Positions 3,001 through 9,000 of a DNA stretch of 64,000 bases are shown here, in pieces (within the stretch, counting starts at the first letter, position 1; the number at the start of each line of letters is the position of its first letter). The stretch is taken from NCBI RefSeq assembly GCF_054482595.1, contig NZ_CM137008.1; one strand, given 5' to 3'. Position numbers: made by a program.

Positions 3001-6000
3001 GAATGGCGAATCTACGCAAGGTTCAGCGACTGGCGCAAAGTGGCGTTCTGGTGGTCAGCGATCGCTTCCCGCAGGCTGAAATTTCGGGCTTTTATTATGA
3101 CGGACCGGGGATCGGCGTCGAACGTGCGACCGGGAAAATAAGCATGTTTCTGGCGCAGCGCGAACGGCGTTTATACCAACAAATGGCGCAATATCGCCCG
3201 GAATTAATTATTCGCCTGGGCATTGATATTGAGACTGCCATCTCCCGCAAGCCTGACCATGACTATGCCGAGCTGCAGGACAAAATCAGTGTTATGTCGA
3301 CGATTGGCTATAACGGCACAAAAATTCTTGAGATTGATTCCAGAGCGCCCTACAGCGAAGTGCTGGAACAGGCACAGAAGGCGGTTTCTCTGGTTGCCAT
3401 CGTTTCTGACCGCCGAAGTTTAACTTAAGGCTGGCGGGATACTTTTTACTATCAACGATAAGGTCAGGCTGAATTGGCGGGTTTTAACATCAAACATTGG
3501 TTTGCAGATGGCGCGTTTCGCACCATTATTCGCAATAGCGCCTGGTTAGGCTCCAGTAATGTCGTGAGCGCTTTGCTGGGGCTGTTGGCGCTCTCGTGTG
3601 CCGGTAAAGGGATGACGCCCGCCATGTTTGGCGTACTGGTGATTGTGCAATCGTACGCCAAGTCGATCAGCGATTTTATTAAGTTTCAGACATGGCAGCT
3701 GGTGGTTCAGTACGGAACGCCAGCCTTGACCAACAATAATCTGCAGCAATTTCGCAATGTCGTCTCATTTTCCTTCTCGCTGGATATCGTCAGCGGCGCG
3801 GTGGCGATTGTCGGCGGCATTGCCTTACTGCCATTCCTTTCCCATTCATTAGGTCTGGATGACCAAAGCTTTTGGCTGGCGGCGCTGTATTGCACGCTCA
3901 TTCCTTCAATGGCTTCCTCCACGCCGACCGGCATTCTGCGTGCGGTAGATCGCTTTGATTTGATTGCTGTACAGCAGGCGACGAAACCTTTTCTGCGCGC
4001 AGCGGGGAGCGTCGCAGCCTGGTATTTTGACTTTGGTTTTGAGGGTTTTGTTATTGCCTGGTACGTGTCGAATCTGGTTGGCGGCACCATGTACTGGTGG
4101 TTTGCCGCGCGCGAATTACGCCGCAGAAATATCCATAACGCCTTCAAATTGAATCTGTTTGAGTCTGCCCGACACATTAAAGGCGCGTGGAGTTTTGTCT
4201 GGTCAACCAACATTGCCCACTCCATCTGGTCGGCGCGTAACTCGTGCAGCACAGTGTTGGTGGGGATCGTGTTAGGACCCGCTGCCGCCGGGTTATTTAA
4301 AATCGCCATGACATTCTTCGACGCCGCCGGAACGCCAGCGGGTTTGCTGGGTAAAAGTTTTTACCCAGAGGTGATGCGTTTAGATCCGCGCACCACCAGA
4401 CCGTGGTTGTTAGGCGTGAAGTCCGGTTTACTGGCGGTCGGAATCGGTATTCTGGTGGCGCTCGCGGTGTTGATCGTCGGCAAGCCGCTCATTTCGCTGG
4501 TGTTTGGCGTTAAGTATCTCGAAGCGTATGACCTGATTCAGGTGATGCTGGGCGCAATTGTGATCTCGATGCTGGGCTTCCCTCAGGAGTCATTGCTATT
4601 GATGGCGGGAAAACAGCGCGCTTTTCTCGTGGCGCAAACCATCGCCTCAATCGGCTACATCGTATTGCTGTTCATGTTCTGTCATCTGTTTGGCGTGCTG
4701 GGAGCAGCGTTTGCTTACTTCGGTGGGCAATGTCTGGACGTGGCGCTCTCGTTAATTCCAACCTTAAAGGCATTTTTTCAGCGCCATTCCTTGCTTTATA
4801 ACGCAGCCGGAGAGAAATCCTGATGATGAGAAAATATTTCCCGCTTGAGGCGAGCGAGCATCTATTTGTTGCGATTGAGGAAGATGATGTTGTTGATGCC
4901 CAGGTCAGTTTGCCGCCGACTATCGCACTAAGTTGTACCACCGAAATCATCCATGATAATTACGCGTTATGCCTGCAATTCTGGCTCAATGGCGTTGATC
5001 GTCAGGAATTACTTCGTTTAATTCGCAAACAAGCCAAAGGCGATGAGCTGACGACAGACGAGCGTAAACAGTTTAAATACATGCGAGCGCGCTACAAGCA
5101 CCTGCGTTTTGCGCAACGGCTGTATTTAAAGAAGCATCAGGCCGGATTTTTATTCGGCAAAACGACCGTTTTTCTGGGACGTTTTCAGGACGGATTTCGT
5201 AACGGTAAGAAAAATATTGTGTCGTATTACGGCAACCTGTTACGAATTTATTTAAGCTCTCCGGTCTGGTCGTTGGTGAACTATTCATTACGCCATAGCC
5301 AGTTAGAAAGCGTAAGCGGTTTTATTGCCTATCGGCAAAAGCAAATGCATGCCCTGAAAGAGATAATTGCCAAACCGCGACTAACCGGCAGGGAATTTCA
5401 TGATGTGCGAAAAATCATCAGCCAGCAGGTTTCTTATTACGACACCTTAAGATCGCTTGATCCTGAAAATAAAGAGGCGTTACAGATTTCCCGTTTCCTC
5501 GCCGCCATTAATGGCCTGATGGGGGATAAACACGACGACATGGTGGCGGATGATATGGAAAACCGCCAGTCGTATGATGCACCGGTGGCGCTGGATAGCG
5601 ATATTCGCCAGCGCTTAGAGCTGCTGATTTCGCGTTTTCCGCTATAACCGGAGCAATGATGTCATCTCGTTTGATTATTGCGCTGATTATCATGCTCTTA
5701 GCCCCGGGTGTGCAGGCACACAATTTCGTCACTGGCAAAACGGTTACCCCTGTTTATATTCAGGAAGGCGGCGAGCTGCTTCTGAATAGCGACGACGAAA
5801 TTCACTACCAAAAGTGGAACAGCACACAATTGGCGGGAAAAGTCCGAATTATCCAGTATATCGCCGGGCGTAAGTCGGCGAAGAAAAAGAACTCACTGTT
5901 AATTAAAGCGGTTGAAGCGGCAAACTTTCCGCAGGATCGTTTTCAGCCCACCACCATTGTGAACACTGATGATGCCATCTTTGGTACTGGCTATTTTGTC

Positions 6001-9000
6001 GTTGGCAAAATCGAAAAAAATAAACGGCGCTATCCGTGGGCGCAATTCGTTATTGACGGCAATGGACAGGGACGCGTTGCCTGGCGCTTGCCGGAGCAGA
6101 GTTCAACCATTCTGGTGCTGAATAAAGCTGGGCAAATTCAGTGGGCAAAGGACGGCAGCCTGACGCCGGAAGAGGTAGATCAGGTCATTGCGCTGGCGCA
6201 GAAACTGATCAATGAATAAAAAACTCAAAGGATTGAGGGCGTTAGTGAGATGAAGCTGGTTGAACACTACATCATGCGTGGTACGCGCCGTCTGGTGCTG
6301 ATTATCGTCGGTTTTCTGATCTTTATTTTCGCCAGCTACTCCGCACAGCGTTATCTGACCGAAGCGGCAAATGGGACATTAGCACTTGATGTTGTGCTGG
6401 ATATCGTTTTCTACAAAGTGCTGATTGCACTGGAGATGTTGTTACCTGTTGGACTGTATGTGTCAGTTGGCGTGACGCTAGGGCAGATGTATACCGACTC
6501 GGAAATTACCGCTATCTCTGCGGCGGGGGGCAGTCCGGGACGCTTGTACAAAGCCGTTCTTTATCTGGCGATACCGCTAAGTATTTTTGTCACCCTTCTG
6601 TCGATGTATGGTCGTCCGTGGGCTTATGCGCAGATTTATCAACTGGAGCAGCAGTCGCAGTCGGAGCTGGATGTTCGCCAGTTGCGGGCAAAGAAATTTA
6701 ACACTAACGATAACGGACGAATGATCCTTTCGCAGACGGTTGATCAGGATAATAATCGCCTGACTGACGCGCTGATTTATACTTCTACTGCCAATCGAAC
6801 CCGCATTTTCCGCGCCCGTTCGGTTGATGTGGTTGACCCATCACCCGAGAAACCGACCGTTATGTTGCACAACGGCACTGCCTATCTTCTCGATCATCAG
6901 GGTCGTGACGACAACGAACAGATCTACCGTAATCTGCAATTACATCTGAATCCGCTGGATCAAAGCCCTAACGTCAAACGCAAAGCAAAATCGGTCACGG
7001 AGCTGGCGCGCTCCGCCTTTCCTGCCGATCATGCCGAACTGCAATGGCGACAAAGCCGTGGCCTGACCGCATTGTTGATGGCGCTGCTGGCCATTTCATT
7101 AAGTCGGGTAAAACCGCGGCAGGGGCGATTTTCAACGTTATTGCCACTGACGTTGCTGTTTATTGCCATTTTTTATGGCGGCGACGTCTGCCGTACGCTG
7201 GTGGCTAACGGCGCGATTCCTCTCATTCCTGGTTTGTGGTTAGTGCCCGGACTCATGCTAATGGGCCTGCTGATGCTGGTTGCACGCGACTTCACTTTGC
7301 TGCAGAAATTTTCCCGATGAATGTTTTCAGTCGCTATTTAATCCGTCATCTCTTTCTCGGTTTTGCCGCCGCCGCAGGGTTATTGCTGCCGCTTTTTACT
7401 ACCTTCAACCTGATTAACGAACTGGATGATGTCAGCCCGGGCGGTTATCGCTGGACTCAGGCGGTGCTGGTGGTGCTGATGACCTTACCGCGTACACTGG
7501 TCGAACTTTCGCCGTTTATCGCCTTATTGGGAGGGATTGTTGGCCTGGGGCAGTTATCGAAAAACAGTGAGCTTACCGCCATTCGCAGCACGGGGTTTTC
7601 TATCTTCCGTATTGCACTGGTGGCGCTGGTTGCCGGGATATTGTGGACTGTTTCGTTAGGCGCGATAGATGAGTGGGTGGCGTCGCCATTGCAGCAACAG
7701 GCGCTGCAAATCAAATCGACCGCCACCGCGTTAGGGGAGGACGATGACATTACCGGCAATATGCTGTGGGCCAGGCGCGGCAATGAATTTGTGACGGTGA
7801 AATCGCTGAATGAACAGGGCCAGCCGGTGGGCGTGGAGATTTTTCATTATCGTGACGATCTCTCGCTCGAATCCTACATTTATGCACGCAGTGCCACCAT
7901 TGAAGACGACAAAACGTGGATCCTGCATGGTGTGAATCATAAAAAATGGCTGAATGGCAAAGAAACGCTGGAAACATTAGATAATCTTGCCTGGCAATCG
8001 GCCTTCACCAGTATGGATCTTGAAGAGTTATCAATGCCGGGCAATACTTTTTCTGTCCGTCAGCTTAATCATTACATCCATTATTTGCAGGAAACCGGGC
8101 AACCCAGCAGCGAATACCGCCTTGCACTGTGGGAAAAACTGGGGCAACCCATCCTGACCCTGGCGATGATTTTGCTGGCTGTGCCGTTTACCTTTAGCGC
8201 CCCGCGCTCGCCAGGGATGGGTAGCCGTCTCGCTGTAGGCGTCATCGTTGGCTTACTCACCTGGATCAGCTATCAAATCATGGTCAATCTGGGTTTGCTA
8301 TTTGCGTTGAGCGCACCTGTTTTCGCGCTCGGTTTACCGGTAGCGTTTGTGTTGATGGCGTTGAGCCTGGTGTATTGGTATGACAGACAATATTAAACCC
8401 GCCGTGGCGCAACACCACAGCGGGCTCACATTACTGCTTCAGAGTAGCAAATGCTTGAATGATGGCATCGATTTGCTCACGACTGTGGGCAGCGTTTACG
8501 CTACAGCGCAGCAGCGTGATGCCTGCAGGCGCGGCAGGTGGCAGGATAAGATTCACATAAACGCCCAGCGAAATAAGCTCGCGCCAGATGCGTAAACCGT
8601 CCTCTTTCGAACCGATTATTACCGGCACTACCGGGCTAATATGTGAACTTAACTCATAACCCAGTTTTTGCAGACCGTCATACAGATGGTTGGCATTATC
8701 CATCAGCTTTTGCCGCAGCTCTGGTTGTGTGGCAATAGTTCTTAACGACGAGCGCACGGTCGCAATGCAGGACGGAGAAGGAGAGGCGGTAAAAATATAC
8801 GGGCGGCTGCCGTAGCGCAGCACTTCCATCGCTTCCGAACCGACAGCAAAACCGCCAATCGAGGCCAGACTTTTACTGAAGGTGCCAACGATAATATCCA
8901 CATCATCTTCAACGCCAACGGCTTCAGCCAGTCCGCGCCCCGTTGCGCCTAACACGCCAAACGAATGCGCTTCATCGACAATCAAATAACCACCGAGACG

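What the first reader, a model, noticed from the sequence alone, without database searches (positions are those of the whole stretch)
3474..8396. Operon of flippase, unknown protein, YtfJ-like periplasmic protein and a private LptF/LptG-like pair converging on the lipid-synthesis operon
Five co-directional genes with overlapping or near-abutting boundaries. A second LptF/LptG-type pair with no cognate ABC ATPase nearby, joined to a flippase and a secreted YtfJ-like protein, looks like a dedicated envelope export route. Its 3' end faces the 3' end of the Spt-like operon across only about 35 bp, suggesting synthesis and export are one functional unit. Which ATPase energises the pair is unknown: the adjacent YghR/S/T proteins have Walker A but no ABC signature that I can see.
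Basis: inference. Interest (0 to 1): 0.7.

Follow-up and report, generated by a model that had tools for sequence, protein, structure and literature searches.

The report
E. coli sphingolipid export operon (LptF2/LptG2)
Most E. coli strains, though not the laboratory strain K-12, carry an operon with a second, specialised copy of the lipopolysaccharide-extracting membrane proteins next to genes for making ceramide-type lipids; it most likely exports those lipids to the outer membrane, an idea recently shown for the matching genes in Caulobacter.

Summary
Five co-directional, abutting genes lie at 3474-8396: a MOP flippase, a 274-aa protein, a YtfJ paralog, and LptF-like and LptG-like permeases. 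They end 34 bp from the 3' end of the spt-acpR-cerR-aasR operon. No ABC ATPase is encoded anywhere in the 64-kb window.

The window is E. coli chromosome, between pitB and glcC. The export and Spt operons are present or absent together in E. coli (about 4065 of 5426 complete genomes). They stay linked in Hafnia, Serratia, Erwinia, Mangrovibacter, Pseudocitrobacter and Sodalis despite rearrangements, and both sit on a conjugative Klebsiella plasmid. More distant LptF2 relatives (34-54% identity) are also spt-linked. All genes are under purifying selection.

LptF2/G2 keep the coupling-helix glutamates that engage LptB. LptG2 has lost the lysines that bind lipid A phosphates.

A 2026 preprint shows that Caulobacter LptF2/G2 are needed when sphingolipid is made and that they bind LptB; it also draws the E. 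coli locus.

Undescribed here:
- The 274-aa protein has a CHAD fold.
- YghR/S/T are kinase-like partners of the flippase and the CHAD-fold protein, an association conserved in alphaproteobacteria. They are not the transporter's ATPase.
- The head group is unknown.

The parts
1059..1751 (-). yghT: soluble P-loop protein with distant dTMP-kinase similarity, divergent from yghS
   Evidence: The only matches are weak dTMP-kinase/P-loop hits. It has no predicted TM segment. It is syntenic in all Enterobacterales loci. Homologs lie next to CHAD-fold genes in Novosphingobium, Acetobacter and P. veronii. dN/dS is 0.07.
1925..2638 (+). yghS: P-loop kinase-like paralog and the probable first gene of the export transcription unit
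   Evidence: It lies 31 bp upstream of yghR on the same strand.
2670..3428 (+). yghR: P-loop kinase-like paralog, 45 bp upstream of the flippase gene
   Evidence: Pfam gives only P-loop and Thymidylate_kin fragments and no ABC_tran match. PDB sequence search finds nothing. Synteny is shown.
3474..4823 (+). MOP-superfamily flippase (full-length YghQ); proposed to flip the lipid across the inner membrane
   Evidence: It matches PF01943 at E = 2.6e-8 and PF13440. The NF007773 MOP flippase match is 32 bits, below the cut-off. It has multiple predicted TM segments. It is 53% identical to the Novosphingobium homolog in the same gene order. It is in the same InterPro/Pfam family as Caulobacter CC_1166. 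In K-12 it is truncated by an IS5-associated deletion.
4823..5647 (+). 274-aa soluble all-helical protein with a CHAD fold ('Ybl138'); its start overlaps the flippase stop by 1 nt
5659..6219 (+). YtfJ2: secreted YtfJ-family protein with a thioredoxin-like fold and no cysteine
6250..7320 (+). LptF2: LptF-family permease paralog
   Evidence: TIGR04407 scores 319 bits. It aligns end to end with solved LptF chains. It is 25% identical to K-12 LptF. The coupling-helix Glu, R33 and K317->R are kept. dN/dS is 0.06-0.09.
7317..8396 (+). LptG2: LptG-family permease paralog; its start overlaps the lptF2 stop by 4 nt
   Evidence: TIGR04408 scores 306 bits. It aligns with solved LptG chains. It is 28% identical to K-12 LptG. 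The coupling-helix Glu is kept, but K34/K40/K41 are replaced by N/D/D.
8394..8428 (.). GC-rich hairpin (16-bp stem) filling the gap between the convergent operons; likely a bidirectional terminator
   Evidence: There is no long T tract on either side, so its function is inferred.
8431..9603 (-). spt: serine palmitoyltransferase
   Evidence: NF047599 scores 599.5 bits. The BL21 ortholog is biochemically active (PMC9386255).
9603..9851 (-). acpR: specialised acyl carrier protein
   Evidence: and PMC9386255.
9883..10797 (-). cerR: epimerase/dehydratase-family ceramide reductase homolog
   Evidence: and PMC9386255.
10794..12482 (-). aasR: fatty acyl-AMP ligase / acyl-AcpR synthetase
   Evidence: and PMC9386255.
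12879..14021 (+). yghO: N-acyltransferase, named as the bacterial ceramide synthase (aca/bCerS) homolog
   Evidence: PMC9386255 (Fig 9 legend) assigns yghO ECD_02850 as aca. It is syntenic in other genera.

Best explanation
The operon is the export half of an approximately 13-kb sphingolipid (ceramide-type lipid) synthesis-and-export island.

Proposed pathway:
1. AasR, AcpR, Spt, YghO (bCerS) and CerR build a (dihydro)ceramide at the inner membrane.
2. The P-loop kinase-like YghT/S/R, together with the CHAD-fold protein, probably add or handle an anionic, phosphate-containing head group.
3. The MOP flippase moves the lipid to the periplasmic leaflet.
4. LptF2/LptG2 form a heterodimeric ABC permease. 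It borrows the cell's single LptB ATPase, through the conserved coupling-helix glutamates, to extract the lipid from the inner membrane.
5. The lipid is then handed to the shared Lpt bridge, possibly with help from the secreted, redox-dead thioredoxin-fold protein YtfJ2, and delivered to the outer membrane.

What is shown here: the family memberships, the gene linkage, the purifying selection, the conserved coupling motif and the altered substrate-cavity charges.

What is shown in the literature, for Caulobacter only: LptF2/G2 are needed when anionic sphingolipid is made, and they bind LptB.

What is inferred: that E. coli makes the lipid; the roles of the flippase, kinases, CHAD-fold protein and YtfJ2; the use of LptB in E. 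coli; and the route beyond the inner membrane.
For: Family membership.
- Both permeases score above NCBI's curated cut-offs and align end to end with solved LptF/LptG chains.
- Both keep the coupling-helix Glu equivalent to LptF E84 / LptG E88.

Different substrate.
- LptG2 replaces the lipid A phosphate ligands K34, K40 and K41 with N, D and D. All spt-linked G2 proteins show similar replacements. K34E is lethal in canonical LptG (PMC6744409).

No dedicated Lpt partners.
- No LptB, LptC or LptA paralog lies in the window or beside any related locus.
- Canonical lptFG are likewise unlinked to lptB.

Linkage.
- Within E. coli, 4103, 4067 and 4065 genomes carry the export part, the Spt operon and both.
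- Thirteen of 13 Enterobacterales loci keep all the genes through three different arrangements.
- The whole island sits on a conjugative IncFIB plasmid.
- LptF2 relatives at 54%, 38% and 34-36% identity also lie beside aasR-cerR-acpR-spt.

Selection and biochemistry.
- dN/dS is 0.03-0.14 for all 13 genes.
- The E. coli Spt/AcpR/AasR enzymes are active (PMC9386255).
- The Caulobacter genetics and LptB pull-downs are in bioRxiv 10.64898/2026.04.12.717747.
Against: - None of the papers read or found in the searched library reports a sphingolipid from wild-type E. coli.
- Expression conditions are unknown, and the promoter scan was no better than chance.
- One close LptF2 relative (Methylomarinovum, L021) has no spt within 10 kb.
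- The E. coli locus lacks LptC2 and all six Caulobacter CPG2 head-group genes, so the substrate differs from the one for which transport evidence exists.
- Truncated lptF2 alleles occur in Shigella and in some E. coli lineages.
Confidence: 0.7

Rival explanations
1. LptF2/G2 extract the lipid, but the route then diverges from the Lpt bridge. The secreted YtfJ2 receives the lipid in the periplasm, acting as a soluble carrier or for release into vesicles or the medium, instead of delivery through LptC/A/DE.
For: YtfJ2 is always encoded immediately upstream of lptF2 in Enterobacterales. It is a Cys-less Trx fold with an invariant cationic motif. No LptC2 or LptA2 is encoded in the locus.
Against: YtfJ2 is absent from the non-Enterobacterales spt-lptF2G2 loci. 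It is 55% identical to a core-genome protein of unknown function. The periplasmic domains of LptF2/G2 align across their whole length with the bridge-forming jellyrolls of LptF/G.
Confidence: 0.1
2. The pair is an alternative LPS exporter, for a modified or stress-form LPS. Its adjacency to the Spt operon would then reflect shared envelope regulation, not a shared substrate.
For: NCBI's equivalog models name the two proteins LptF and LptG. Several cavity cations are kept: LptF R33, K317->R; LptG K62->R, R136->K.
Against: The TM1 lysines of LptG that bind lipid A phosphates are replaced by Asn/Asp, and K34E is lethal in LptG. Linkage to spt persists through rearrangements, plasmid transfer and down to 34% identity. 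Presence and absence in E. coli track spt almost perfectly.
Confidence: 0.07
3. LptF2/G2 are energised by something other than LptB, for example one of the neighbouring P-loop proteins YghR/S/T.
For: Three Walker-A proteins are always encoded next to the operon. There is no direct evidence for LptB use in E. coli.
Against: YghR/S/T have no ABC signature and no ABC_tran match, and resemble dTMP-kinase-type P-loop proteins. Their homologs occur next to CHAD-fold and flippase genes where no LptF2/G2-like gene was detected (Novosphingobium, P. veronii). The coupling-helix Glu of both permeases is conserved. Caulobacter LptF2/G2 co-purify with LptB.
Confidence: 0.05
4. The flippase, CHAD-fold protein and kinases serve a non-sphingolipid glycolipid or polysaccharide, and only happen to lie beside the Spt operon.
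For: The flippase belongs to the Wzx-like PF01943 family, which usually flips undecaprenyl-linked glycans. In Novosphingobium the kinase-flippase-CHAD module stands alone, away from spt. Glycosyltransferases flank it in Acetobacter and on the Klebsiella plasmid.
Against: In Sphingomonadales the sphingolipid genes are known to be scattered (PMC11324152). The taxa that hold CHAD-fold relatives are mostly sphingolipid producers. In Enterobacterales the genes are tightly packed with lptF2G2. A PF01943-family flippase (CC_1166) also sits in the Caulobacter sphingolipid locus, and its mutants show cofitness with mutants in locus genes.
Confidence: 0.06

Closest known systems
Caulobacter crescentus LptF2/LptG2 (CCNA_01214/CCNA_01213) sphingolipid transporter (Uchendu, Isom & Klein, bioRxiv 10.64898/2026.04.12.717747; predicted earlier in PMC11324152)
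   Same: Both are a second LptF/LptG pair encoded inside the spt-acpR-cerR-aasR-bCerS locus. Neither locus has its own LptB. A PF01943-family flippase lies in the same locus. The preprint's Fig 2B draws the E. coli UTI89 locus alongside the Caulobacter one.
   Different: The E. coli locus has no LptC2 and none of the CPG2 head-group genes (the DAGK-type ceramide kinase CpgB, the CDP-alcohol phosphatidyltransferase, the nucleotidyltransferases, the phosphoesterase). Instead it has three dTMP-kinase-like P-loop proteins, a CHAD-fold protein and a YtfJ paralog. No genetics, lipidomics or protein-interaction data exist for the E. coli proteins. Direct sequence orthology was not tested here.
Canonical LPS extractor LptB2FG(C) of E. 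coli, Shigella and Enterobacter (PDB 6MHU, 6MIT, 6S8H; PMC6744409)
   Same: Same protein family and architecture. The F and G genes overlap in the same way. The coupling-helix glutamate is kept, as are some cavity cations. In both cases the ATPase gene is unlinked.
   Different: Identity to E. coli LptF/LptG is only 25%/28%. LptG2 has Asn/Asp/Asp at the lipid A phosphate ligands K34/K40/K41. The pair is non-core (absent from K-12) and is linked to ceramide synthesis instead of pepA.
CHAD domains (polyphosphate-binding conserved-histidine helical domains; PDB 6QV5, 6RN5, 3E0S; C-terminal domain of E. coli YgiF, 5A61)
   Different: Pfam's CHAD model does not detect it by sequence. It is coupled to a lipid flippase and to kinase-like proteins, not to triphosphatase or PPK/PPX genes. 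Polyphosphate binding is untested.
E. coli YtfJ (b4216), PF09695/TIGR01626
   Same: The two proteins are 55% identical, of the same length, both with a signal peptide, and share the IAGR-SAK-KN motif.
   Different: YtfJ2 is an extra copy embedded in the export operon. The function of the core YtfJ is itself unknown.

Membership tests
LptF/LptG permease family (PF03739; TIGR04407 LptF, TIGR04408 LptG) | Profile match above the curated cut-off across the whole length | tested here: met
   LptF2 scores 319 bits against a cut-off of 230, and LptG2 306 bits against 240. Each scores far lower on the other model. PF03739 is precomputed for the orthologs.
LptF/LptG permease family (PF03739; TIGR04407 LptF, TIGR04408 LptG) | Three TM helices, a large periplasmic domain, then three TM helices; colinear with solved LptF/LptG | tested here: met
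   phmmer alignments cover residues 4-354 and 3-351 of solved chains. Hydropathy shows N- and C-terminal TM clusters flanking a hydrophilic insert of about 170 aa. No 3-D model of these two proteins was made.
LptF/LptG permease family (PF03739; TIGR04407 LptF, TIGR04408 LptG) | Coupling helix with the conserved glutamate that engages LptB (LptF E84, LptG E88; residue numbers from my own knowledge of the LptB2FG literature) | tested here: met
   The motifs are DS[E]IT in LptF2 and NS[E]LT in LptG2, invariant in all relatives aligned.
LptF/LptG permease family (PF03739; TIGR04407 LptF, TIGR04408 LptG) | Physical complex with an LptB dimer | not testable with these tools
   This is shown only for the Caulobacter homologs.
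Canonical LPS-specific LptFG (functional equivalog) | Cationic ligands of the lipid A 1'- and 4'-phosphates in LptG TM1 (K34, K40; also K41 for the core) | tested here: not met
   The replacements are K34->N, K40->D and K41->D in E. coli LptG2, and D/E in the more distant spt-linked G2 proteins. The residue roles and the lethality of K34E come from PMC6744409.
Sphingolipid-locus LptF2/LptG2 (Uchendu et al. 2026) | A paralogous pair in addition to a canonical lptFG, encoded in or next to the spt/acpR/cerR/aasR/bCerS locus | tested here: met
   Canonical lptFG lie at pepA-yjgR in E. coli K-12. They are assumed, not checked, to be present in the window's own strain. The window pair abuts spt. The linkage holds in every one of the 13 Enterobacterales loci examined and in 3 more distant loci.
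Sphingolipid-locus LptF2/LptG2 (Uchendu et al. 2026) | No dedicated LptB in the locus | tested here: met
   tblastn with LptB finds nothing in the 64-kb window. Elsewhere it finds only unrelated importer or MsbA-like NBDs at about 30% identity.
Sphingolipid-locus LptF2/LptG2 (Uchendu et al. 2026) | Deletable only when sphingolipid (anionic head group) synthesis is abolished | not testable with these tools
   This needs a genetic experiment.
Sphingolipid-locus LptF2/LptG2 (Uchendu et al. 2026) | Sequence orthology to CCNA_01214/CCNA_01213 | not tested
The nearest non-enterobacterial relatives found were unnamed metagenome or MAG proteins.
MOP/Wzx-type flippase (PF01943 Polysacc_synt) | Profile match and a polytopic membrane protein | tested here: met
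   PF01943 matches at E = 2.6e-8 and PF13440 at 2.8e-7. There are at least 6 strongly hydrophobic segments. The match to the NCBIfam MOP flippase equivalog is only 32 bits against a cut-off of 273, so membership is at the superfamily level only.
YtfJ family (TIGR01626 / PF09695) | Profile match above the cut-off; secreted | tested here: met
   The match is 213.5 bits against a cut-off of 151.1. The protein is 55% identical to b4216 and has an N-terminal signal-like segment.
CHAD domain (PF05235) | Sequence profile match | tested here: not met
   The Pfam scan gave no CHAD hit.
CHAD domain (PF05235) | CHAD fold (paired helical bundles) with conserved basic/His residues | tested here: met
CHAD domain (PF05235) | Binds inorganic polyphosphate | not testable with these tools
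   This needs a biochemical assay.
ABC transporter ATPase (candidate role for YghR/S/T) | ABC signature (LSGGQ) and an ABC_tran profile match | tested here: not met
   No signature motif was found. YghR gives no PF00005 hit. The NCBIfam hits to ABC ATPases cover only the Walker A region, residues about 8-42.

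The most novel reading that the evidence does not exclude
About three quarters of E. coli strains, and many other Enterobacterales, would make an undescribed anionic sphingolipid whose head group differs from Caulobacter CPG2. In this reading the head group is built or handled by a conserved sub-module that no paper in the searched library links to sphingolipids: dTMP-kinase-like P-loop proteins (YghR/S/T) working with a CHAD-fold protein, possibly binding polyphosphate or a phosphate head group. The lipid would be flipped by a Wzx-like flippase and then exported by LptB2-LptF2G2, with a Cys-less thioredoxin-fold YtfJ paralog as periplasmic helper. 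The K-12 laboratory lineage lost all of this through an IS5-associated deletion, which would explain why E. coli is taught as lacking sphingolipids.
Probability: 0.3. Interest if true: 0.8.

Novelty: new member of a known kind. Interest (0 to 1): 0.45.

Why it matters
E. coli is the reference organism for outer-membrane biogenesis, and it is usually described as having only glycerophospholipids and LPS. A conserved, selected and horizontally mobile ceramide synthesis-and-export island in most natural isolates, pathogens and BL21, but missing from K-12, would have several consequences.
- Many E. coli envelopes may contain a lipid class that K-12 work cannot reveal.
- The essential LptB ATPase, a drug target, may serve two different permease pairs.
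- E. coli would offer a tractable system for studying bacterial sphingolipid transport.

The kinase, flippase and CHAD-fold sub-module and YtfJ2 are concrete, untested candidates for the missing flipping and head-group steps.

Tried and rejected
Searches that gave little:
- The genome-contig scan with LptF2 returned only 10 loci, because its peptide patterns reach only close relatives. One of them (L011) is a 241-bp contig in a Falsirhodobacter assembly that matches E. coli at 100% amino-acid identity, probably contamination.
- Representatives P0247 and P0249 lay on contigs too short to show context. Longer cluster members were used instead.
- PDB sequence searches for YtfJ2 and YghR found nothing.
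- The promoter and terminator scans were no better than shuffled sequence.
- Rfam found no RNA family in 1-16000.

Ideas rejected:
- YghR/S/T as homologs of the Caulobacter ceramide kinase CpgB. CpgB is a DAGK-type kinase with a GGDG motif, not a P-loop protein.
- The CHAD-fold protein as the equivalent of Caulobacter CC_1167, which lies next to the flippase CC_1166. CC_1167 is a CDP-glycerol glycerophosphotransferase-like protein.
- A profile built from the CHAD-fold family found no member in the distant spt loci L016, L019, L020 and L021. That gene is therefore not universal to spt-lptF2G2 loci.
- YghR as a PPK2-type polyphosphate kinase. The Pfam scan gave no PPK2 match.

Not run: the costly metagenome scan, because plasmid tblastn had already supplied non-enterobacterial contexts.

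Full report
**What is there.** The window is E. coli chromosome. Its first 16 kb are 100% identical to strain XH990 and several other strains, in the order pitB, yghT, yghS, yghR, the five genes of the finding, then the convergent spt-acpR-cerR-aasR operon, yghO and glcC. The five + strand genes are at 3474-4823, 4823-5647, 5659-6219, 6250-7320 and 7317-8396. The gaps between them are -1, 11, 30 and -4 bp. The last stop codon lies 34 bp from the stop codon of spt on the opposite strand. A hairpin with a 16-bp stem (8394-8428) fills that gap and looks like a shared terminator. The one adjustment is that yghS and yghR lie 31 and 45 bp upstream on the same strand and travel with the operon in every relative. 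The unit probably starts at yghS.

**Family assignments.** NCBIfam places the two permeases above the curated cut-offs for LptF (319 bits against 230) and LptG (306 against 240). The 186-aa protein falls in the YtfJ family (213.5 against 151), and Spt in the serine palmitoyltransferase equivalog (599.5 against 500). The first gene matches the Wzx-type PF01943 family. The 274-aa protein has no Pfam or NCBIfam match. YghR/S/T give only P-loop and weak dTMP-kinase similarity.

**How the pair compares with the housekeeping LptFG.**
- LptF2 and LptG2 align end to end with solved LptF and LptG chains. They are only 25% and 28% identical to E. coli K-12 LptF and LptG, so they are old paralogs and not a recent duplication.
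- Both keep the glutamate of the coupling helix, the element that docks into LptB.
- The substrate cavity differs. Cryo-EM work names LptG K34 and K40 as ligands of the lipid A phosphates and K41 as a ligand of the inner core, and reports that K34E is lethal (PMC6744409). In LptG2 these three positions are Asn, Asp and Asp, and they are Asp or Glu in the more distant spt-linked relatives. LptF R33, LptF K317 (as Arg), LptG K62 (as Arg) and LptG R136 (as Lys) are kept.
- The energy-coupling signature is thus conserved while the substrate signature has changed.

**The ATPase question.**
- No real ORF in the 64 kb carries an ABC signature.
- tblastn with E. coli LptB, LptC and LptA finds nothing in the window. 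Beside the related loci it finds only unrelated importer or MsbA-type domains.
- This is normal for the family. Canonical lptFG lie between pepA and yjgR, and lptB lies in the lptCAB cluster more than a megabase away.
- In Caulobacter the locus-encoded LptF2/G2 co-purify with the single LptB (bioRxiv 10.64898/2026.04.12.717747).
- I infer the same partner in E. coli. This was not tested.

**Co-occurrence.**
- Within 5426 complete E. coli genomes, the export part (4823-8396) is present at >=80% coverage in 4103, the Spt operon in 4067, and the two together in 4065. The two operons are gained and lost together.
- The K-12 lineage keeps only the first 1069 bp of the flippase gene. An IS5 element now sits between that stump and yghO.
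- Across genera, all 13 sufficiently long loci hold the three kinase-like genes, the five export genes and the four spt-operon genes, plus yghO where the flank reaches. These loci come from Escherichia species, Pseudocitrobacter, Mangrovibacter, Hafnia, Serratia, Erwinia and Sodalis.
- The arrangement differs between them. It is convergent as in E. coli, or the spt operon lies upstream in the same direction, or the order is scrambled. The flanking genes also differ.
- The whole island, in the Serratia-type arrangement, sits on a conjugative IncFIB plasmid of Klebsiella michiganensis.
- The next-nearest LptF2 relatives in a 1.84-billion-protein library drop sharply to 55% and then about 38% identity. 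Where their contigs were long enough, three of four lay beside aasR-cerR-acpR-spt. The fourth, Methylomarinovum, had no spt within 10 kb.
- Those distant loci carry the Caulobacter-type head-group genes (a DAGK-type kinase, nucleotidyltransferases, a CDP-alcohol transferase, a phosphoesterase). Two of the three (L016 and L019) also carry an MsbA-like exporter. The Enterobacterales set is different.

**Selection.** Pairwise dN/dS between the window and two other Escherichia species is 0.03-0.14 for all 13 genes, with no internal stops. These are working genes. Truncated lptF2 alleles do exist in Shigella and in some E. coli clusters.

**The kinase-like genes belong with the flippase.** tblastn against plasmids recovered three non-enterobacterial contexts:
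- Novosphingobium: kinase-like, kinase-like, flippase (53% identity), CHAD-fold (42%), in the same order as E. coli yghS-yghR-flippase-274-aa gene.
- Acetobacter pomorum: a flippase divergent from CHAD-fold, kinase-like, and an LptF/LptG-family permease.
- P. veronii: CHAD-fold followed by kinase-like.

A metagenomic spt locus also has two YghRST-like genes. The kinase-like proteins are therefore partners of the flippase and the CHAD-fold protein, not of the ABC permeases. No paper in the searched library combines 'CHAD domain' with 'sphingolipid'.

**What is already published.**
- The E. coli BL21 Spt, AcpR and AasR are biochemically active, and yghO is assigned as the N-acyltransferase (PMC9386255).
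- A 2024 paper annotated second copies of LptC, LptF and LptG and a flippase in the Caulobacter locus as probable transporters (PMC11324152).
- The April 2026 preprint showed that the Caulobacter genes can be deleted only when spt or the ceramide kinase is deleted, that LptF2 and LptG2 form a complex, and that both bind LptB. It states that such pairs occur in alpha- and gammaproteobacterial loci and draws the E. coli UTI89 locus in a figure.
It remains untested in E. coli.

**Most likely mechanism.**
1. Ceramide is made by the convergent operon and YghO.
2. A phosphate-type head group is added or handled by YghT/S/R with the CHAD-fold protein.
3. The MOP flippase flips the lipid.
4. LptB2-LptF2G2 extract it.
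5. It is delivered through the shared Lpt bridge, possibly helped by YtfJ2.

Steps 2, 3 and 5, and the production of any sphingolipid by wild-type E. coli, are inferences. I put 0.7 on the core claim that LptF2/G2 export the Spt-derived lipid. The rivals are a soluble-carrier route through YtfJ2, an alternative LPS exporter, a non-LptB energy source, and an unrelated glycolipid; each has specific evidence against it, given in the rival entries.

**Verdict.** The permease pair is a new, uncharacterised member of a recently described kind. The accompanying kinase, flippase and CHAD-fold sub-module, YtfJ2 and the unknown head group are the parts that remain open. Interest is moderate (0.45): the concept is published, but the prevalence in E. 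coli and the undescribed accessory genes make it directly testable in the best-studied bacterium.

Noticed in passing
L023 9122-12795 (Novosphingobium sp. RL4 megaplasmid); L024 10341-14832 (Acetobacter pomorum pSH1); L025 4914-6416 (Pseudomonas veronii plasmid): A conserved sub-module occurs outside Enterobacterales: YghRST-type P-loop kinase-like gene(s), a PF01943 flippase and a CHAD-fold protein. In Novosphingobium the gene order matches E. coli. In Acetobacter an LptF/LptG-family permease follows directly. No paper in the searched library links CHAD domains to sphingolipids.
   Followed up: partly
L028 4501-7866 (E. coli DH1, K-12 lineage): In K-12 derivatives an IS5 element sits between a 3'-truncated yghQ and yghO. 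The CHAD-fold gene, ytfJ2, lptF2, lptG2, spt, acpR, cerR and aasR are all missing, so the model strain lacks the whole pathway.
   Followed up: yes
L026 (Klebsiella michiganensis conjugative IncFIB plasmid NZ_CP106839.1, 99911-122723): The complete 13-gene island is plasmid-borne next to tra genes. It carries an extra family-2 glycosyltransferase after lptG2 and a small DgkA-type diacylglycerol kinase beside the yghO homolog. A DgkA-type gene is also present in the Sodalis locus L013.
   Followed up: partly
window 4823-8396 compared with 8431-14021: Synonymous divergence from other Escherichia species is uneven. dS is about 0.69-0.75 for the CHAD-fold gene, ytfJ2 and lptG2 (0.63 for lptG2 in one of the two comparisons), but 0.13-0.31 for spt, acpR and yghO. 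This suggests a recombination mosaic within the island.
   Followed up: no
window 8394-8428: A 16-bp-stem GC-rich hairpin exactly fills the 34-bp gap between the convergent lptG2 and spt stop codons. It has no long T tract on either side. It is presumably a bidirectional terminator.
   Followed up: partly
window 5659-6219 and L027 4712-5263 (K-12 ytfJ): YtfJ-family proteins model as thioredoxin folds without any cysteine. They share an invariant cationic IAGR-SAK-KN motif where CxxC would be. The core-genome YtfJ (55% identical) has no known function and may also act on envelope lipids.
   Followed up: partly
L012 17854-18579 (Hafnia alvei): A 4'-phosphopantetheinyl transferase gene (PF01648) lies directly after the yghO homolog. 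It may be a dedicated activator of AcpR. It is absent from the E. coli window.
   Followed up: no
L011 (Falsirhodobacter sp. 20TX0035, 241-bp contig): A 241-bp, low-coverage contig in an alphaproteobacterial assembly matches E. coli lptF2 at 100% amino-acid identity. It is almost certainly contamination, not a real homolog.
   Followed up: no
proteins P0101, P0105, P0048 and fusions P0002, P0015: Many database entries for LptF2 are truncated (238-270 aa, including Shigella boydii) or are called as fusions with YtfJ2 or PitB. This indicates frameshifts or deletions of the gene in some lineages.
   Followed up: no
window 7236-7316: The mechanical ORF for lptG2 extends 81 nt upstream to a GTG inside lptF2. 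The annotated ATG at 7317 overlaps the lptF2 stop by 4 nt and agrees with all the orthologs.
   Followed up: yes
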